Source: Granulicella sp.
GTDB taxonomy: Bacteria; Acidobacteriota; Terriglobia; Terriglobales; Acidobacteriaceae
Length of the DNA stretch: 15,871 nucleotides
Direction of reading: 5' to 3'
Assembly: GCA_027339965.1 (NCBI GenBank)
Contig: DAHWNL010000084.1
Coordinates: 1-15,871 of the forward strand
The notes beneath the pieces are model-generated. The model had not been told where the DNA came from. It made no database searches and saw nothing but the letters and a program-made list of their open reading frames with translations. Within the stretch, counting starts at the first letter, position 1. Every line of letters begins with the position of its first letter. Below are positions 2 through 7,380 of this stretch, piece by piece. Made by a program: the position numbers and the translations under genes.

Positions 2-151
2 AACTGGCCGCTTGGCCGCAACTACATCGCGCCCCCTAGCCATGGATCGCTGGCGACGCTTGACTCGGCCCTCATCGTCACCCCTCCCAAAGGACTGGAG
101 ATCGGCTACGTGCCCATCGTTACCAGACAGGAGCTCGCCCCAGTTAAGTAA
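2..151 (+). CDS. 3' end of a hypothetical protein (partial, runs off the left edge)
   Basis: Frame 2 is open from the edge to TAA at 149-151: ...NWPLGRNYIAPPSHGSLATLDSALIVTPPKGLEIGYVPIVTRQELAPVK*. Protein-like composition and GC-rich third positions. It is absent from the ORF track because it has no start in the window. Confidence 0.7.
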   Translation, partial: NWPLGRNYIAPPSHGSLATLDSALIVTPPKGLEIGYVPIVTRQELAPVK

Positions 152-341
152 AAGTTGCGAATGTTGCCCAGAGCGGAACCAACGGACCTGGATCTTGCTG
201 CGTTCAGTGGAGGATACAAAGCGATCGACTCTCGTAACTTGCCCGAGGTGGTTCAAGGAGAGTTGGCACGCCGGTTTCGATCTCTCCCAGACAGAGGCAC
301 GGATGGCCCTGCATTGCAACACGAAATCCATGCATGTGGTC

Positions 342-721
342 GGTAACCCCTGTTCAGCGGCCGCGGAGATCCAGCTTGCTCTCCGAGGCGGAGATTGGTT
401 TCGCGCCCACGCCTTCGAGTTCGCCCGCGCCAAGGCACAGATCGATCATTGCCTCACCAGGCCCAAGCATCCCTGGACCAACGGACAAGTCGCGCGCATG
501 AACCGAATCCTCAAGGAAGCGACCGTGAAAGGCTTATGCTGCCAGACTCACGAACACTTCCGTCAACACCTCGCCGACTTCGTCAACGCCTACAACTTCG
601 TCCGAAGACTCAAGACGCTCCGAGACCTCTCCCCTGCGAATCCATCTGCTCCATCTGGACAAAATAACCGAATCGATTCAAACTCCATCCAATTCATCTA
701 TCCCCGGGATCATACAGCTAG
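342..721 (+). mobile_element. Degenerate IS481-family transposase C-terminal remnant with probable right end (ACA at 714-716)
   Basis: HAFEFA..IDHCLTRPKHPWTNGQVARMNRILKEATVK...HLADFVNAYNFVRRLKTL matches the IS481 integrase-core tail (HPWTNGQVERMNRTIKEATVK). The catalytic E reads as A. A 1-nt frameshift at ~631-634 continues as CESICSIWTK*PNRFKLHPIHLSPGSYS*, with a premature TAA at 665-667. No recognisable N-terminal half. Confidence 0.85.
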
Positions 722-906
722 CTTCCTTGCCTCTGTGAAACACATGCTCTTACCCAAGAGGCTACCCGGTTCCATGCCTGCTTCGGTTTGCGTTCCACGC
801 GACGCACGGCGCATCTGCAGCTTGAAGCATCTCCGTTGTAAATGGGCCACGGAGAGACCGTACGGTGGCGCCTCGATCGTGTTGTGAGACTGGATGACGC
901 CAGCGC

Positions 907-1359
907 TTACTCGCTTGCTCCCGCGGCTTTGGCTTCCACCAACTCAAATAGCTGGCGGGAGGGAGCATAGATCCATGCAATTCTTCTACCTCCGAAGGCG
1001 ACCGCCGGCACAGGCCCGGAGACCAGCACGCAGCGATTGTCCTTGGCATGGGCCAGCGCTGCCTCCATGTTGCTGGTCTCAAGGCATAGGTGATAGGCTC
1101 CTCCTCCGCCTTTGCTCAGCATCGACTGGATGGGAGAATCGCTACTCAAGGGAGCGATTAACTCAATCTCGGCGACGTCTTCAGTAGACTTGGCCAGAAA
1201 GTTCACTGTCACCTTCTGAATGGGATCGTCAAACGGGCCGGAGACCATCCGGTAGCCAAACAGATGCGTCAGCATCTCTGTGGTTGGGCCCAGCGCGGGA
1301 ACAGCGACCCCCACATGAAGCAGCTTGAAACCCAGAGCCGCGGGTATATCCGGCGTCAA
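907..1359 (-). CDS. VOC/glyoxalase superfamily protein, methylmalonyl-CoA epimerase-like
   Basis: 150 aa with the four VOC metal-ligand motifs LLHVGVAV, EIELIAP, GAYHLCLE and LFELVE. TTG start overlaps the ACP stop (TTGA), with GGGAG upstream. Confidence 0.88.
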   Translation of the reverse strand: MTPDIPAALGFKLLHVGVAVPALGPTTEMLTHLFGYRMVSGPFDDPIQKVTVNFLAKSTEDVAEIELIAPLSSDSPIQSMLSKGGGGAYHLCLETSNMEAALAHAKDNRCVLVSGPVPAVAFGGRRIAWIYAPSRQLFELVEAKAAGASE

Positions 1360-1604
1360 AGCGAGACTCCCTTCTTTTCCAGCTCCGCCTGCAAAAGAGC
1401 GACTGTCGTCAGTTCAGGAACCCGCTGCGGATCGAACTGCACCCCGTACTCGCCCTCCAGGGCCAGCACCGCCTGCAAATGCCGGAAGGAGTCCCAGGTT
1501 TCGAGGGTGACGCTGCTCAGCTCCGGCGTTACCTCTTCGGGAGAGATCTCGAAGACGTCGGCGAGGAGTTCACGCAGTGAGGGCGGTACTTGCGGAGAGT
1601 TCAT
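1356..1604 (-). CDS. Acyl carrier protein
   Basis: 82 aa, acidic, with a WDSFRHL phosphopantetheinylation motif followed by LALEGEYGVQF. ATG lies 1 nt after the FkbH stop. Confidence 0.92.
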   Translation of the reverse strand: MNSPQVPPSLRELLADVFEISPEEVTPELSSVTLETWDSFRHLQAVLALEGEYGVQFDPQRVPELTTVALLQAELEKKGVSL

Positions 1605-1605
1605 G

Positions 1606-3534
1606 TTATTCAGTTCCTTCCAGGGTGATCCATTGCGGGCTGCTTAGCGATGCAGCCGTCAAATCAAACTCGTAAAACGTTGCGTCCGCTGCAGGGACCT
1701 CCACGGAAGCACCCTCCGGCGCAGGGCAGCGGACAAATCCGTGATCGGGATAAAACGTGGCGCACGGAGTGTTCTTTTTCGTAGAGATGAACTCGCCCAC
1801 CAGCCGCCTGGCTCCCGCTCGCACCGCTTGTTCCGCCACGTAGGCCAGAAGCGCGGTCTCGACCCCGCGGCCAATCACGCGGCAGGATAGCAGCAGGGAA
1901 TCAATGTAGCAGGCGTCTGCACGCTTGCTGGCCAGGGCCAGCCCAACCACCCCGGCATCTCCAAAGCGGTCGCGGACTCTTACGGCCACGGCCTGTCCTC
2001 CGGGCGCAGAAAGGAACTGTTCCACCTCCGCGGCCGAGCGGCGCCGCGTGGTCAGGTTGAACTGATTGGTCTTGGCGAGCAGTTGTACCGCTCTCGATAG
2101 CGGAGCTTGCAGAGCACTTTGGAATGTGCAGATGATCTCCATAGAGGCGAGAAACTCCTCGCGGCTGTCCGCGGAGCGAGCCAACTCCATCCTCTGCGTC
2201 TGCGCCTTGTACTCCTGCAAGCGGTTCATGTCGTCATCCGTCACCAGGATGGCGTCGAAGTAAGGCTGCTCTGCCAAAAGATCCACGAGCTTCCATGGTT
2301 CGGCGGCAGGCGCTTGCAAAACGGCCACCTCGGGTAGTTGGCTGCGAATGGCTGCGCACTCGGCGGGATGATCGTCCACAAAGACAAAGGAGTCCAGGCC
2401 CAGCGATAGCTCTTGAGCAAGCTCACGCAGAGCATCGGCTTTTTCTCCCCAGCCGATCTTGCGCGCTACAAAATCATCCAGAGAGAGCGCCAGATCAGCG
2501 GCGCGGGTTTGAAAGGCTTCCTGTACGTCGGCTTCGTTGTTCTTGGAGACCACGGCCAGCAGGATGCCACGCTGTGAAAGCTGCCTCAGGTAGCGTTGAT
2601 ACTCCAGATAGCAGTTTCCAGGAAAGGCGCTGCCGGTCGCGATCCCATCGGCTCCATCCTCGCCCAGGATTCCGCCCCATAGCGTGTTGTCCAGATCGGT
2701 GCAGAGAACCTTCCGTGGGGCGCGGAAGAGAGTAGCGAAGCTGCGAACCAGTCCGCGAGCGTAGGCCGGAAAAAACTCTGCCGACAGAGGCAGCCGAGAG
2801 GCCAGAAACATGCGTCTGTCGCGCCATCGGGCTCGGCCATGGCGCGCCGCCAGCCGATCCACATCAAAGAAGACGCAGTCCGGTGTGGCACGGCACGCCT
2901 CCGCCAGTCTCTCGTTCAGCCGCAATACGGCGTTCGCCAGACTGTGCGGAAGGTTGGCATCGCCCACGTCGCCGGAAGAGGTGACGTCCGGAATCACCAG
3001 GCCGTGCAAGAGCATACGAGCGGAGCTTCGCGAGCGAAAGTTCCGCAGCAACTGCGCCATCCGCGCCGCTGCTTCCTGAATCTCGTCCTCCACCCCGGCG
3101 CCAGAGCCATCCGCGCACAGCCCGGGCAGACGGCCTGCGGCATCTTCCAGATCCAGCGCGATCAGCACCAGATCGGGCTGAAAGCGGGCCAGATCGCTAT
3201 CCGGCTGTAGAAGCTCGCTGACATAAGAGCCGTAGCCGCCAGCTTGGAGATTCAGGAAGAAGCCGGAGAAGACCGCCTCCGTGCTCAGATAGGGCAATAT
3301 TGGTTCAAGAGTCACGGAGCGAACCAGATAGGTTCGCAGTTTCTTCAGCCCCAACTGCGTTACCAGCGTTTCGGCTTCGGTGGCGAAGCCATTGGCGCAG
3401 AACAGAACATCTGAGGCTTTGGAGGAGACAGCCAGCAGATCGCGTGCAAGCTGCACAGCGGCGCGGGCCTCCGAATTCGCCAGGGCGTCCTTGATGCGCC
3501 GGCGTAGTTCGTTGCGTTGCGAATCAACCTGCAT
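1606..3534 (-). CDS. FkbH-like HAD-IIIC phosphatase/glyceryl transferase, long multi-domain form
   Basis: 642 aa. HAD motif I TDLDNTLWGGILGEDG, SKNNE, FVFVDD, and FkbH motifs KTNQFNLTTRR, DRFGDAGVVG and LLSCRVIGRGVE. About 270-aa N-terminal extension. Confidence 0.93.
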   Translation of the reverse strand: MQVDSQRNELRRRIKDALANSEARAAVQLARDLLAVSSKASDVLFCANGFATEAETLVTQLGLKKLRTYLVRSVTLEPILPYLSTEAVFSGFFLNLQAGGYGSYVSELLQPDSDLARFQPDLVLIALDLEDAAGRLPGLCADGSGAGVEDEIQEAAARMAQLLRNFRSRSSARMLLHGLVIPDVTSSGDVGDANLPHSLANAVLRLNERLAEACRATPDCVFFDVDRLAARHGRARWRDRRMFLASRLPLSAEFFPAYARGLVRSFATLFRAPRKVLCTDLDNTLWGGILGEDGADGIATGSAFPGNCYLEYQRYLRQLSQRGILLAVVSKNNEADVQEAFQTRAADLALSLDDFVARKIGWGEKADALRELAQELSLGLDSFVFVDDHPAECAAIRSQLPEVAVLQAPAAEPWKLVDLLAEQPYFDAILVTDDDMNRLQEYKAQTQRMELARSADSREEFLASMEIICTFQSALQAPLSRAVQLLAKTNQFNLTTRRRSAAEVEQFLSAPGGQAVAVRVRDRFGDAGVVGLALASKRADACYIDSLLLSCRVIGRGVETALLAYVAEQAVRAGARRLVGEFISTKKNTPCATFYPDHGFVRCPAPEGASVEVPAADATFYEFDLTAASLSSPQWITLEGTE

Positions 3535-4099
3535 CCGCTCTCTCCGTCGCCTTCGGTTCCGAATCTGCGGCTGCTCGGGCGGGCCGCATGATGACTCGTC
3601 CGGGAACGCCCATCACCGTCGCGCCGGCCGGGACATTGCTGATCACAAGGGTGTTGGCGGCGATCTTTGCTCCACTGCCTACCTTGATTTTGCCCACCAG
3701 GGTGGCTCCGGTGCCGATATAGATGTCGTCGCCGAGAGTAGGCGCTCCCTGTCTCCCCATGGCGGACGTTCCAATGGTCACCCGGTGAGCCAGGTCGCAG
3801 TTTTTGCCTAAAACGGCCTGGGGATTGATATGGACTGCTCCGATATGCCCAATATACAAGCCTGGTCCGATGGTTGCTTGGGGATCGATGCACATCTCCA
3901 TGAACACTTCGCACCACTTGTTCGCAACATAGGAGATCAGCTTCAAGGGAATCCGGATCAGGAAGAAAGGTTGTGCCACATGCAGCCAGTTTCCCAACCG
4001 GTAGCAAGCGATGGACCACACCGCCGGGTTCAGCCATAGCTGCCGGCCGCGGTAGCCGCGTGCCCGGTAGCGTGCCATATCTGCGTAAAAGTCGTTCAT
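3524..4099 (-). CDS. Short serine O-acetyltransferase-like (CysE/WcaB/EpsC-type) hexapeptide-repeat acyltransferase
   Basis: 191 aa. IDPQATIGPGLYIGH, VTIG, PTLGDDIYIGTGATLVGKIKVGSGAKIAANTLVISNVPAGATVMGVPGRVI form a left-handed beta-helix. Stop overlaps the FkbH start by 11 nt. Confidence 0.88.
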   Translation of the reverse strand: MNDFYADMARYRARGYRGRQLWLNPAVWSIACYRLGNWLHVAQPFFLIRIPLKLISYVANKWCEVFMEMCIDPQATIGPGLYIGHIGAVHINPQAVLGKNCDLAHRVTIGTSAMGRQGAPTLGDDIYIGTGATLVGKIKVGSGAKIAANTLVISNVPAGATVMGVPGRVIMRPARAAADSEPKATERADAG

Positions 4100-4324
4100 T
4101 CACTTGGCCTTGCCAGGGTGTTGTGACGCCGCGCAGAGGGTGCTGCGCTTCTGGGACCATTCTAAAGGCTCCTGTCGATAGGCTTCTGGATCGATCACCC
4201 GCCGAGCAACCACAGTGGGCGTAGACGTTGCCTCCGCCATGCGTGGGTAAAACTTTCCCTTGAACTCTTTCAGCGCCAGTGTGGTCTCGCAGCCAGCTCC
4301 TGTAAAGAGCGCTGTTGTTCCCAA
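4100..4324 (-). CDS. Possible small hypothetical ORF bridging arsR and the acyltransferase
   Basis: Its TGA directly abuts the acyltransferase ATG (TGAATG). No recognisable domain. It contains a TAGAAT -10-like hexamer (4164-4159), so it may be promoter DNA instead. Confidence 0.2.
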   Translation of the reverse strand: MGTTALFTGAGCETTLALKEFKGKFYPRMAEATSTPTVVARRVIDPEAYRQEPLEWSQKRSTLCAASQHPGKAK

Positions 4325-4344
4325 GTGAAGCGCTACCCGCCAAG

Positions 4345-4803
4345 CTAAACCTCCCCCGGCTCAGAGTGGCGCTTGAATTGTGTTGCCCGTCCAGTCGAAC
4401 AGGCGATGGTCTCAGCGGCTGCAGGCAGCGGGGCGCCCTCCAGGGAAGAGATCTTCTGCGATGCGCAGCACGCCCTGCCCAGGCGCGCCAGATCCGCCTG
4501 CATCCGTTTCTCCAGCCGGAGCGCCGCCAAGGTCTCGCCCAGGATCCTTGCCGCACCGGCATGCGAAGGAGCCGCAATCGTGTAGTGCATCCACTTCCCC
4601 TCACGCCGCGCAGTGACAACGCCGGCGCGGCGGAGATACGCCAGATGCCGGGAGATCTTGGGCTGGTTCTGCCCCAGGATCTCAACAAAGTAGCAGACGC
4701 AGACCTCCCGCCCATCCATCAGGTTCAAAAGGCGCAGCCGCGTGCGGTCGGCTAGCGCCGCAAAGAGAAGCACCAGTTCAGAGTCTTTGCTGAGACGTTC
4801 CAC
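4345..4803 (-). CDS. arsR: ArsR/SmtB family metalloregulatory repressor
   Basis: FAALADRTRLRLLNLM..EVCVCYF..QPKISRHLAYLRRAGVVTARREGKWMHY winged HTH. GTG start at 4803 preferred over the track start 4971, which overlaps arsM. Divergent from arsM. Confidence 0.92.
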   Translation of the reverse strand: MERLSKDSELVLLFAALADRTRLRLLNLMDGREVCVCYFVEILGQNQPKISRHLAYLRRAGVVTARREGKWMHYTIAAPSHAGAARILGETLAALRLEKRMQADLARLGRACCASQKISSLEGAPLPAAAETIACSTGRATQFKRHSEPGEV

Positions 4804-4809
4804 GTTTCT

Positions 4810-4870
4810 ATGATATACGGCTTGACGGATACGAATGCCTCCTTTATATTTGCTTATGCATATATGTAAA
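4810..4870. promoter_or_regulatory. Divergent arsR/arsM promoter-operator region
   Basis: Plus strand: TTGACG (4822-4827), 17 nt, TATATT (4845-4850). Imperfect inverted repeats ATATACGG-CTTG-ACGGATAC (4813-4832) and ATATTTGC-TTAT-GCATATAT (4846-4865) overlap the -35 and -10/TSS. Minus strand: TATCAT (4815-4810) lies 6 nt before the arsR GTG. Confidence 0.75.
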
Positions 4871-4880
4871 GGAAGTTCGC

Positions 4881-5726
4881 ATGGAGTCGAACACAACGGT
4901 TCAGGAGCAGGTGAAGGCAAAGTATGGGAGCGCCGCGCGCGCCGTGGCGCAGTCCGGCAGCGTGCTGGCATGTTGTGATCCGGGGCTCCGCTGTTGTGAT
5001 CCGATCACGACCAACCTGTATAGCGCGGATGAGAAGGGTCGAATCCCTGAGAAGGCGTCGCTGGGATGCGGTAATCCAACGGCCTTGATCGAACTTCATC
5101 CAGGAGAGACGGTGCTCGATCTGGGCTCCGGGGGCGGAATCGATGTTCTGCTTTCGGCGCAGCGGGTTGGACCCACCGGCAAAGCTTTCGGTCTGGATAT
5201 GACCGAGGAGATGCTGGCGTTGGCTCGCGAGAATCAGCGCCAGGCCGGCGTGAACAACGTCGAGTTTCTCAAGGGTGAGATCGAGAACATTCCTTTGCCG
5301 GATGGCTCGGTGGACGTGATCATCTCCAACTGCGTCATCAATTTGTCGGCTGATAAGGATCGAGTTCTCTCTGAAGCCTTCCGGGTGCTCAAACCCGGTG
5401 GCCGATTCGCTGTCTCCGATGTGGTGACGCGGGGAAGCGTGCCGGACCAGGTGAGGCAGAGCATGCAGCTGTGGGTTGGCTGCATTGCTGGGGCTCTTGA
5501 GGAGAACGAGTATGTGGACAAGCTTGTAAAGGCGGGATTTGGCGCAGTTTCTGTTGAGCCGACCCGGATGTACAACGTGGAAGATGCCCGTCAGTTCCTT
5601 ACCAACTCCGGCGTGGATGTGGATGCGATTGCTGCGGAGGTTGACGGGAAGTTCATGAGTGCGTTTTTGCGCGCCACCAAGCCGGCGGAAGCTTGCTGCA
5701 CCGGTGTCGGCTGCTGCGCTGTCTAA
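4881..5726 (+). CDS. arsM: Arsenite S-adenosylmethionine methyltransferase
   Basis: SLGCGNP, SAM motif [27 protein letters not shown] and WVGCIAGAL, with N- and C-terminal CC pairs. AAGGAAG RBS; ars context. Confidence 0.95.
4971..5003 (+). repeat. 12-bp direct repeat TGTTGTGATCCG x2 (21-nt period) encoding [11 protein letters not shown] in ArsM
   Basis: Copies at 4971-4982 and 4992-5003. Confidence 0.7.
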
Positions 5727-5794
5727 GAGATCCCACGGGAGATCCCAAACGACTCCAGCGGCCACTCCGGCCAATGCCAGAAAGGGACAAGGGC

Positions 5795-6286
5795 ATGACC
5801 ATCCGCTTGAACGTTCTGTTTCTCTGTACGGGAAACTCAGCGCGCTCCATCATGGCGGAGGCGATTCTAAGCCACCGGGGCGAGGGCCGGTTCAACGCCT
5901 ACAGCGCGGGCAGCCATCCAAGCGGCAAGGTACGTCCGGAGGCACTGCGCCAGATTGAGTCGGCGGGCATGCGGACAGCCGGGCTGCGCAGCAAGTCCTG
6001 GGATGAGTTTGCCGCTGAGGGCGCGCCGAGCATGGATTTTGTCATTACCGTGTGCGATCAGGCGGCCAACGAGGCTTGTCCTTACTGGCCCGGCCAGCCG
6101 ATGAGCGCACACTGGGGCATCGCCGATCCCGCAGCCGTGCGCGGTACGCGGGCGGAGATTGCACTGGCCTTCCGGGAGGCGTTTGAGATTCTGGATCGAA
6201 GGATCGGTCTGTTCCTCTCCTTGCCGTTCGGCGTGCTCCATCCGCCTGCCATGAAGCGGGAGATTGAGAAGATCGGTCGTTCGTAA
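5795..6286 (+). CDS. arsC: Arsenate reductase, LMW-PTPase (thioredoxin-type) fold
   Basis: [13 protein letters not shown]-loop, [19 protein letters not shown] (resolving Cys pair) and [10 protein letters not shown] 5795 chosen after a purine-rich RBS. Confidence 0.93.
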
Positions 6287-6306
6287 TCCTGTTCCGGAGA
6301 GATGCT

Positions 6307-7380
6307 TTGAAGAAGAGTCGCCTGTCGTTTCTCGATCGCTATCTTACCGGCTGGATCTTTGCGGCCATGCTGGCCGGCATTGCGCTGGGCTGGTTTGTTC
6401 CGGGGTTTGCACAGACGGTGAACCGCTTCCGTGTCGGGACGACGTCGATCCCGACCGCCGTCGGATTGATCCTGATGATGTATCCGCCGTTCACGCGGGT
6501 TCGCTATGAAGAGCTGCATGAGGTGCTTCGCAACAAGCGCGTGCTGGGACTGTCCCTTGTGCAGAACTGGATTGTCGGACCAATTCTGATGTTTGTCCTG
6601 GCGATCGTCTTCCTGCGAGGTTATCCCGAATACATGGCGGGGCTGATCATGATCGGGCTGGCCCGGTGCATCGCCATGGTGATTGTGTGGAACGAGCTCG
6701 CCAGGGGCGATACGCAGTTCGCTGCCGGCCTGGTGGCGTTCAATTCGATCTTCCAGGTGCTTTTCTTTTCTATTTATTCGTGGGTGTTTCTGACGGTCTT
6801 GCCGGGCTGGTTCGGTTTGCACGGAGCGGTAGTGCGCGTCTCGATGGCCGAGATTGCGCAGAGCGTCTTCATCTATCTCGGGATTCCGTTCCTGGCGGGC
6901 TTTGTGACGCGCGCGGCGCTGGTTCGCACCAAGGGGCTGGAGTGGTATGACCGAAGCTTTGTGCCGCGCGTGAGCCCACTGACGCTGGTAGCGCTGCTGT
7001 TCACGATCGTGCTGATGTTCAGCTTGAAAGGCGGCTACATTGTGCGCCTTCCGCTGGATGTGGTCAGGATTGCGATTCCCCTGCTGATCTACTTTGTAGT
7101 GATGTTTCTGGTTTCGTTTGCCATGGGACGGAGGATGGGAGCGGACTACTCGAAGACGACCACGCTGGCCTTCACGGCGGCCTCAAATAACTTTGAACTG
7201 GCGATTGCGGTGGCGGTTTCGGTGTTTGGAATCAACTCCGGCGCGGCCTTTGCGGCTGTGATCGGGCCGCTGGTGGAGGTGCCGGTGATGATCGGTCTGG
7301 TGAATGTGGCGTTCTTCTTTCAGCGGCGATACTTTGCGAGCGCTGAGGGCGGTGGAGTAGGGGTTCGCGCGCGTTGTTGA
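6307..7380 (+). CDS. acr3: ACR3 family arsenite efflux permease
   Basis: 357 aa with about 10 TM segments. [39 protein letters not shown] and GPLVEVP motifs. TTG start with GGAGAG upstream. Confidence 0.95.

What the first reader, a model, noticed from the sequence alone, without database searches (positions are those of the whole stretch)
907..4099. Stand-alone acyltransferase-FkbH-ACP-VOC cassette: candidate carrier-bound glyceryl transfer system
Seen: four co-oriented genes with overlapping or abutting junctions (11-nt overlap, TAA-C-ATG, TTGA) and no PKS, NRPS, MBOAT or glycosyltransferase in the window. The cassette is bounded by an IS481 remnant and arsR. Known: FkbH/OzmB enzymes convert 1,3-bisphosphoglycerate to D-glyceryl-S-ACP, normally for polyketide extender units or tetronates. 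Short CysE/WcaB-like LbH enzymes O-acylate sugars or Ser, and some LbH enzymes (LpxA/LpxD) use acyl-ACP donors. Inference: this is a minimal load-modify-transfer pathway putting a C3 acyl group (glyceryl or a derivative) on a glycan, LPS or small molecule, with the 'serine acetyltransferase' acting as an ACP-dependent glyceryltransferase. I do not know of a characterised example of this four-gene set.
Basis: partly seen in the sequence, partly recalled or inferred. Interest (0 to 1): 0.75.

Follow-up and report, generated by a model that had tools for sequence, protein, structure and literature searches.

The report
Carrier-protein glyceryl cassette for surface polysaccharide
Four overlapping genes in an acidobacterium, which in many relatives sit inside a surface-polysaccharide gene cluster but here lie apart from it, likely load a three-carbon glycerate unit from glycolysis on a small carrier protein, probably invert its handedness and likely attach it to that polysaccharide, an untested route that could explain known glyceryl decorations such as gellan's.

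Summary
The four genes and their junctions are real and recur in independent assemblies. FkbH passes its family cut-off with intact HAD motifs and Cys551; the LbH is not CysE (true cysE is elsewhere). The set is conserved: all four in order in 52 of 59 FkbH-anchored loci; ACP follows the LbH in 36 of 36 LbH-anchored loci. 'Stand-alone' holds only locally: 42 of 50 long loci carry glycan genes, 21 of 22 cassette genomes hold the same Wzy-type gene, and this genome has that cluster split over four other contigs. No MBOAT, NRPS or modular PKS was found. VOC and a MaoC-SDR enzyme exclude each other (76/5/0 both, of 85 loci), so the fourth gene is a tailoring slot. Best reading (0.55): glyceryl-ACP, epimerised by VOC, transferred by LbH to the glycan in trans; 0.75 if a lactyl or pyruvoyl product is allowed. 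No step is shown biochemically; no paper found. The scan noted this kind of cassette before on other DNA. New variant of known chemistry; interest 0.58.

The parts
3524..4099 (-). Short left-handed beta-helix acyltransferase (CysE/EpsC/WcaB-like, 191 aa); predicted ACP-dependent transferase
   Evidence: Hexapep 39.4 bits; below cut-offs of cysE, EpsC, WcaB; His85 invariant in 90 sequences; ACP downstream in 36 of 36 loci
1606..3534 (-). Long FkbH-like protein, 642 aa: helical N-end, SGNH-like FkbH_N, HAD-IIIC phosphatase, GNAT-like domain with Cys551; predicted glyceryl-ACP synthase
   Evidence: TIGR01686 282 bits, cut-off 146.65; D280, D282, S330, K365, D387, D388, C551 invariant in 58 sequences; model pLDDT 91.7, best match 3slr, then GNAT and MDP-1 folds
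1356..1604 (-). Dedicated acyl carrier protein, 82 aa, WDSF motif with Ser39
   Evidence: PP-binding 20.0 bits, cut-off 20.8; D38 and S39 invariant in 79 sequences; net charge -9
907..1359 (-). VOC metalloenzyme, 150 aa, methylmalonyl-CoA epimerase / glyoxalase I type; predicted tailoring of the ACP-bound unit
   Evidence: Glyoxalase_4 67.6 bits; TIGR03081 60.1, cut-off 114.95; H15, E66, H90, E139 invariant in 74 sequences; profile hits 2qh0/3hdp E 2.5e-31, then epimerases
12..887 (+). IS481-like transposase remnant, flank only
   Evidence: rve_3 and NF033577 partial, below cut-off; a similar remnant also follows the cassette in L001
4345..4860 (-). ArsR regulator of the neighbouring arsM-arsC-acr3 genes, flank only, not part of the system
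   Evidence: NF033788 82.2 bits; no ArsR match in any of the other 99 loci

Best explanation
The four genes form one conserved unit that likely builds a glyceryl group on its own carrier protein and likely esterifies it onto the cell's Wzx/Wzy-type surface glycan, whose genes lie elsewhere in this genome. Steps: (1) AcpS, the only phosphopantetheinyl transferase found, would prime ACP Ser39 (inferred). (2) FkbH takes 3-phospho-D-glyceryl from 1,3-bisphosphoglycerate via Cys551, removes the phosphate in its HAD domain and yields D-glyceryl-S-ACP (inferred from family chemistry; motifs shown). (3) VOC removes and returns the C2 proton with its two metal-bound glutamates, giving L-glyceryl-S-ACP (inferred; least certain step). 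(4) The LbH trimer uses His85 to activate a sugar hydroxyl, probably on the lipid-linked repeat unit in the cytoplasm, and takes the acyl group from ACP instead of CoA (inferred). The decoration is optional, and the cassette works in trans after the cluster broke up.
For: Shown: gene order and coupling; catalytic motifs invariant; purifying selection while detached. Glycan link: GT, flippase, Wzy or deacetylase genes in 42 of 50 long loci, Wzx or Wzy in 34 of 50; the Wzy orthologue is in 21 of 22 cassette genomes and 13 of 45 others (kin are not independent); the same cluster occurs with and without the cassette at one site; orthologues at 58-84% identity lie on C28, C47, C31 and C2 of this genome, with Wza/Wzz-type export and exosortase genes. 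Detachment is real: 4 genomes have cassette and wzy at least 180 kb apart on one contig. No competing consumer found: MBOAT 0, condensation domain 0, one full-length ketosynthase. LbH as ACP-linked transferase: it keeps ACP and VOC where FkbH is missing (4 loci, 3 distinct); its nearest FkbH-free paralogues (56-58%, 3 of 3) face another ACP with AMP-ligases; one homologue is fused to an ACP-like domain (P0040); in other phyla FkbH-ACP-VOC comes with MBOAT or Acyl_transf_3 in place of LbH. Precedent for the product: L-glyceryl ester in gellan (PMC9737242, passages); glyceryl-ACP from 1,3-BPG by FkbH (PMC7489565, PMC8949500, passages); two C. jejuni strains lacking either the fkbH-domain gene or the adjacent epimerase both lack dimethylglyceric-acid sugars (PMC7099621, sections 26 and 28).
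Against: No biochemistry. No glycan structure is known for any cassette carrier examined; hydrolysed EPS of two Granulicella strains was reported with pyruvate and without acetate, and 'glycer' does not occur in that text (PMC5259719, passages; whether those strains carry the cassette was not tested). The VOC profile is closer to a protein deposited as glyoxalase I (E 2.5e-31) than to epimerases (2.8e-19). VOC is swapped for a dehydratase-reductase in 5 loci, which points to products other than glyceryl in those variants. LbH homologues at 31-46% sit in glycan loci with no ACP seen, two of them fall inside the cassette clade in the tree on long branches, and no convincing ACP-binding signature separates the groups. 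The ACP-like domain of P0040 scores below the Pfam cut-off and hhalign probability is 3%. G005 has the cassette and no wzy match (93% complete, 350 contigs). The C. jejuni correlation is two strains with other shared losses (maf6). 8 of 50 long loci have no glycosyltransferase nearby.
Confidence: 0.55

Rival explanations
1. Same route and same acceptor, but VOC does not epimerise: it eliminates the C3 oxygen to give pyruvoyl-ACP, or works like glyoxalase I on methylglyoxal plus the ACP thiol to give lactyl-ACP; LbH then transfers pyruvoyl or lactyl.
For: VOC and MaoC-SDR never co-occur in 85 loci (76 VOC, 5 MaoC-SDR, 4 neither), and dehydratase plus ketoreductase on glyceryl-ACP gives lactyl-ACP in some polyketide starters (recalled; one search found no paper). 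Best profile hits are deposited as glyoxalase I. LbH-ACP-VOC occurs without FkbH in 3 distinct loci. Pyruvate reported in Granulicella EPS and no pyruvyl-ketal transferase found in this genome.
Against: Swapping need not conserve the product. The next hits are all thioester C2 epimerases. VOC is missing without replacement in 4 loci, and not found in 3 of those 4 genomes, which fits an optional stereo-step. The FkbH-less loci are metagenome contigs whose genomes could hold FkbH elsewhere, as G250 holds a second free-standing copy (14, 96).
Confidence: 0.2
2. LbH is an ordinary acetyl-CoA O-acetyltransferase, acting on the sugar or on ACP-bound glycerate (as Mad17/Agg4 acetylate before elimination), and another enzyme or FkbH's own SGNH-like or GNAT domain hands the C3 unit on.
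For: All nearest characterised relatives use acetyl-CoA. Related LbH genes without ACP sit in the same glycan locus in other genomes. FkbH carries an extra SGNH-like domain of unknown role with a near-invariant Ser73. Acetylate-then-eliminate is described for tetronates (PMC7489565, passages).
Against: LbH stays when VOC is replaced or lost and stays with ACP when FkbH is lost. In other phyla unrelated transferase families fill the same slot. This genome had a separate WcaB-like LbH after wzx, now frameshifted.
Confidence: 0.17
3. In this lineage the detached cassette acylates something else (a lipid, a protein O-glycan unrelated to this locus, or an exported small molecule), or is a relic.
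For: Detached in roughly half of the genus sample (10 near wzy, 4 far, 7 on other contigs); efflux genes flank it in several detached loci; an IS remnant is adjacent.
Against: dN/dS 0.05-0.15; the glycan genes are also scattered but mostly intact here; flanks differ between detached loci; no scaffold-building PKS or NRPS found.
Confidence: 0.06
4. The LbH is a housekeeping serine acetyltransferase and the neighbours are unrelated.
For: Best sequence hits are CysE.
Against: 98 bits against a cut-off of 210.65; a full cysE (258.5 bits) lies on C52 next to a cysteine-synthase-like ORF (59, 61); CysE's D-H and R-H positions read G84-H85 and G118-A119 here; strict linkage to the ACP.
Confidence: 0.02

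Closest known systems
FkbH/OzmB/Mad7/Mad14 glyceryl-ACP synthases with stand-alone ACP (methoxymalonyl-ACP and tetronate pathways)
   Same: FkbH domain over cut-off, HAD motifs, Cys, dedicated ACP; predicted first step identical (PMC7489565, PMC8949500, passages).
   Different: Long form with SGNH-like N-domain; no dehydrogenases, methyltransferase or FabH in the cassette; no PKS or NRPS found in the genome; partners are glycan genes.
C. jejuni flagellin glycosylation locus (cj1301 epimerase, cj1302 fkbH-domain gene; dimethylglyceroyl-pseudaminic acid)
   Same: FkbH-domain gene and epimerase side by side in a glycan locus whose product carries a glycerate derivative (PMC7099621, PMC3068675).
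   Different: N-acyl on a nonulosonate; only Cj1295 has been tied to the modification; the papers do not assign cj1301 or cj1302; their sequences were not compared here.
Gellan L-glyceryl O-ester
   Same: Wzx/Wzy exopolysaccharide with a glyceryl ester of L configuration, which an epimerase would explain.
   Different: The review passages name a glyceryltransferase activity but no gene; whether the producer has this cassette could not be tested.
CysE / EpsC / WcaB left-handed beta-helix O-acetyltransferases; LpxA/LpxD for ACP use
   Same: Fold family, catalytic His, glycan-locus context; LpxA/LpxD show that the fold can use acyl-ACP (recalled).
   Different: Below all family cut-offs; lacks SATase N-domain and serine-binding residues; far from LpxD (36-41 bits against 207-242).
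BF1531 of Bacteroides fragilis (PDB 3slr)
   Same: Only solved relative of the long FkbH (E 4.8e-38; TM 0.82 on the target).
   Different: Uncharacterised, N-terminal part only.

Membership tests
FkbH-like glyceryl-ACP synthase | TIGR01686 above curated cut-off | tested here: met
   282 bits, cut-off 146.65
FkbH-like glyceryl-ACP synthase | HAD motifs (DxDxT, S, K, DD) and conserved C-terminal Cys | tested here: met
   D280, D282, S330, K365, D387, D388, C551 invariant in 58 sequences; roles recalled
FkbH-like glyceryl-ACP synthase | Loads glycerate from 1,3-BPG on its ACP | not testable with these tools
   needs in vitro assay
Methoxymalonyl-ACP / tetronate glycerate-utilisation operon | Linked dehydrogenases, methyltransferase or FabH, and a PKS/NRPS | tested here: not met
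   none in the cassette or its recurring neighbours; condensation domain 0, one full-length ketosynthase in the genome
Acyl carrier protein | DSx motif with phosphopantetheine Ser, acidic | tested here: met
   D38-S39 invariant in 79 sequences, net charge -9
Acyl carrier protein | PF00550 gathering score | tested here: inconclusive
   20.0 against 20.8
Serine acetyltransferase CysE | TIGR01172 cut-off, SATase N-domain, serine-binding residues | tested here: not met
   98.5 against 210.65; no SATase_N hit; residues replaced (roles recalled); true cysE on C52
EpsC / WcaB polysaccharide O-acetyltransferase | NCBIfam cut-off | tested here: not met
   93.7 against 150; 49 against 195
EpsC / WcaB polysaccharide O-acetyltransferase | Catalytic His and polysaccharide-locus context | tested here: met
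   His85 invariant; glycan genes in 42 of 50 long loci
EpsC / WcaB polysaccharide O-acetyltransferase | Acetyl-CoA as donor | not testable with these tools
   needs assay
Methylmalonyl-CoA epimerase | TIGR03081 cut-off | tested here: not met
   60.1 against 114.95
Methylmalonyl-CoA epimerase / glyoxalase I (VOC) | His-Glu-His-Glu metal site | tested here: met
   H15, E66, H90, E139 invariant, aligned to solved members; ligand roles recalled
Dlt-like ACP/MBOAT relay | MBOAT transferase | tested here: not met
   PF03062 not found in this 98.9% complete genome

The most novel reading that the evidence does not exclude
This is the missing general pathway for glyceryl (and lactyl) esters and amides on bacterial glycans: FkbH plus a dedicated ACP as donor, a swappable tailoring enzyme (VOC epimerase for L-glyceryl, MaoC-SDR for lactyl) and a swappable transferase, here a CysE-like beta-helix enzyme that has switched from acetyl-CoA to acyl-ACP and serves several ACP loaders. 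It would supply the genes behind gellan's L-glycerate and the glycerate on Campylobacter flagellin sugars.
Probability: 0.4. Interest if true: 0.8.

Novelty: new variant of a known kind. Interest (0 to 1): 0.58.

Why it matters
Glyceryl groups on bacterial glycans are known (gellan; Campylobacter flagellin), but the papers seen here name no donor pathway for them. A four-gene, soluble, 3.2-kb unit that moves in and out of a glycan locus is an easy system in which to test a carrier-protein route, an epimerase acting on an ACP-bound hydroxy-acid and a CysE-like enzyme using acyl-ACP. It also predicts a specific, unreported substituent on acidobacterial surface polysaccharide, and warns that such genes are easily mis-read as 'serine acetyltransferase', 'phosphatase' and 'glyoxalase'.

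Tried and rejected
LbH monomer model was poor (pTM 0.47) and its fold search gave nothing at E <= 0.001; not used. Search for ACP-binding signature residues or charge in LbH: only 7 positions differ, net charge does not separate groups. LbH tree: cassette sequences do not form one side of a branch (3 changes; long branches). Family-wide LbH search was too broad (1 clear relative in 150 genomes); the phylum search found 8 of 300, of which 4 are cassette orthologues. Promoter scan: nothing upstream of the cassette, one site upstream of arsM; repeats unremarkable. No RNA holder listed. Atlas search only returned FkbH_N clusters. Link to arsenic resistance rejected: ArsR absent from the other 99 loci. 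Recent transfer rejected as unsupported: GC and GC3 match the host. CE4 deacetylase as a dedicated partner (N-acylation) not supported: it stays in loci without the cassette. The paper on the Clostridium glyoxalase I structure was not held, so its activity is recalled only. Literature searches for a described FkbH-glycan pathway: (44 papers, 40 listed); none found beyond the passing mention in PMC7099621; most subscription papers and patents are not searched, and no supplements were read.
Full report
Observation. The window is all of contig C74 of a 3.8-Mb, 98.9% complete genome; its nearest named relatives are Acidobacteriaceae. Four minus-strand ORFs run LbH 4099-3524, FkbH 3534-1606, ACP 1604-1356, VOC 1359-907, joined by an 11-nt overlap, TAA-C-ATG and TTGA. 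FkbH, ACP and VOC are single-copy by tblastn. Contigs of runs from other studies carry the same IS481-cassette-ars order (X4 spans 112-6500 with 10 differences); of four shared differences inside the cassette three are silent and one gives Gly88 in LbH, the residue of the family. dN/dS against the four closest loci is 0.05-0.15 in all 15 pairs.

The proteins. FkbH passes TIGR01686 (282 against 146.65) and has FkbH_N, HAD and GNAT parts; D280, D282, S330, K365, D387, D388 and C551 are invariant in 58 sequences. The ACP has an invariant D38-S39. The VOC has an invariant His15-Glu66-His90-Glu139 set, falls short of the methylmalonyl-CoA epimerase cut-off, and as a profile matches 2qh0/3hdp (deposited as glyoxalase I, E 2.5e-31) before the epimerases (2.8e-19). 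The LbH keeps His85 but is below the cysE, EpsC and WcaB cut-offs; a true cysE lies on C52 and its serine-site residues are not kept in the cassette protein (residue roles recalled). The genome has one phosphopantetheinyl transferase match, AcpS-sized, and no match to MBOAT, condensation domain or pyruvyl transferase; ketoacyl-synt gives one full-length and two partial matches.

Conservation. One search gave 75 FkbH loci; I counted the 63 at 50% identity or more and left out 12 distant ones. With enough flank, LbH precedes FkbH in 61 of 62, ACP follows in 60 of 61, VOC in 53 of 60, all four in 52 of 59. Starting from LbH (62 metagenome loci), FkbH follows in 49 of 53, ACP in 36 of 36 and VOC in 31 of 34. 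In 67 genomes of the genus, LbH orthologues (66% or more) and FkbH orthologues occur in the same 22 and are adjacent in all 22. One genome of another family has a distant FkbH, an ACP-like ORF, an LbH piece at 66% and a VOC in a different order. These samples are related and partly redundant, so the counts are not independent trials.

What it belongs to. Recurring neighbours are a Wzx-type flippase, a Wzy_C protein, GT2 and GT4 enzymes, a CE4 deacetylase, exosortase, EpsI and a TPR protein: 42 of 50 long loci have such genes, 34 of 50 Wzx or Wzy. The Wzy orthologue is in 21 of 22 cassette genomes and 13 of 45 others, and gene maps show the same cluster with and without the cassette between the GT2 block and the deacetylase: an optional decoration. 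In this genome the cluster is broken into pieces: GT4-Wzy-GT2-Wzx on C28, CE4-GT4-GT4 on C47, two accessory genes on C31, export and exosortase genes on C2. Among 21 genomes with both, cassette and wzy are within 25 kb in 10, at least 180 kb apart on one contig in 4, and on different contigs in 7. So 'stand-alone' is a displaced state, with action in trans inferred. The Wzy_C protein scores best, below cut-off, with an exosortase-associated O-glycosylation ligase, so the glycan could be exopolysaccharide or a protein-linked surface glycan.

Slots. Fourth gene: of 85 loci with an ACP orthologue and 1.6 kb downstream, 76 have VOC, 5 a MaoC-SDR fusion, 4 neither and none both (domains). A homologous MaoC-SDR (34%) follows FkbH-ACP on a Niveispirillum plasmid. 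Two caveats: one MaoC-SDR genome and one VOC-less genome have a VOC elsewhere. Transferase: FkbH, ACP and VOC come with MBOAT on two of three plasmid loci opened (3 of 207 records looked at) and with Acyl_transf_3 in Bacteroidales loci. Loader: LbH-ACP-VOC without FkbH in 4 loci, two identical; the three nearest FkbH-free LbH paralogues face a different ACP with AMP-ligases and an SDR, probably one inherited event. Among the 49 longer of the 150 best profile hits, one has an ACP-like N-domain (P0040, weak score), four are fused to glycosyltransferases and one to a deacetylase. Against: LbH relatives at 31-46% lie in glycan loci with no ACP seen, and neither residues nor tree cleanly split ACP-linked from ACP-free forms.

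Mechanism. Shown: anatomy, motifs, linkage, selection, absence of other consumers in searches. From established knowledge: FkbH enzymes make glyceryl-ACP from 1,3-BPG (PMC7489565, PMC8949500, passages). Inferred: VOC inverts C2 to L-glyceryl, by analogy with two-base thioester epimerases; LbH transfers the acyl group to a sugar hydroxyl. I put this at 0.55, the same route with a lactyl or pyruvoyl product at 0.2, LbH as acetyl-CoA enzyme at 0.17, another acceptor or relic at 0.06, CysE at 0.02.

Literature. Gellan carries L-glyceryl at O-2 and the review names an activity but no gene (PMC9737242, passages; Kuo 1986 seen as a reference title only; PMC4432689, passages). In C. jejuni, strain 12664 has the fkbH-domain gene cj1302 as a pseudogene, strain 12661 lacks the epimerase cj1301, and neither shows dimethylglyceric-acid sugars (PMC7099621, sections 26 and 28 and passages); the authors do not draw this link and the strains share other losses. 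Cj1295 is required for that sugar, and the main text has no mention of ACP, cj1301 or cj1302 (PMC3068675, passages). Granulicella EPS was reported with pyruvate and no acetate, partly after strong acid hydrolysis (PMC5259719, passages). PMC4552970 (passages) added only a DH-MT-FkbH-ACP module. Ten searches found no description of an FkbH-ACP route to glycans. The lactyl-ACP route by dehydratase plus ketoreductase, LpxA/LpxD use of acyl-ACP and the activity of the Clostridium glyoxalase are recalled, not from calls.

Verdict. Real, conserved, and best read as a carrier-protein glyceryl decoration module of a surface glycan. It works like the FkbH/ACP step of polyketide pathways but is not a member of those operons; its LbH is not CysE. 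New variant of a known kind, untested. The scan has noted the same kind of cassette in other genomes; my reading was written down before I saw those notes. What this locus adds is the in-trans state, the VOC/MaoC-SDR exclusion, the FkbH-less trio and the C. jejuni strain correlation. Interest 0.58.

Noticed in passing
L101:12028-12614 (G000 C28, directly after wzx): A second, WcaB-like LbH gene that is frameshifted; intact relatives lie in the glycan locus of other genomes (L120, L124, L127).
   Followed up: partly
L108:8231-16888, L109, L110: LbH paralogue divergent from a cluster of haem-oxygenase-like protein, ACP, two AMP-ligases, SDR, PLP decarboxylase and a Cys/Met PLP enzyme: a second, unexplained ACP pathway in three genomes.
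   Followed up: partly
L225:2-2070: Pyruvate-dehydrogenase E2-like ORF, then a protein with an ACP-like N-end and a phosphopantetheinyl transferase domain, then a WcaB-like LbH and a GT-like ORF: possibly another ACP-fed glycan acylation unit.
   Followed up: partly
L175, L176, L181, L204: LbH-ACP-VOC trio with FkbH cleanly absent inside an intact glycan locus.
   Followed up: partly
L044, L093-L095: Free-standing FkbH orthologues (58-60%) with no LbH, ACP or VOC beside them; the genome of L044 also has a full quartet about 17 kb away.
   Followed up: partly
window 4345-7380: arsR divergent from an arsM-like methyltransferase, arsC and acr3 arsenic-resistance set; one sigma-70-like site at 4822-4850.
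   Followed up: no
L103:4062-10333 (G000 C31): Two large secreted-looking proteins and a 248-278 aa protein that recur beside the glycan locus; the two that were scanned gave no Pfam match.
   Followed up: no
L105 and L106 (G000 C25, C44): Two similar copies of a block GT2, nucleotide pyrophosphatase-like ORF, succinate-dehydrogenase-like genes and dipeptidase-like ORF: duplication or strain mixing in the assembly.
   Followed up: no
window 3837: Four sequencing runs read a base giving Gly88 in LbH, the conserved residue, where the window has Ala.
   Followed up: yes
L218 (Sinorhizobium meliloti pSymB): VOC-MBOAT-unknown-ACP-FkbH cassette near IS and recombinase genes; 40 Sinorhizobium plasmid records match FkbH.
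   Followed up: partly
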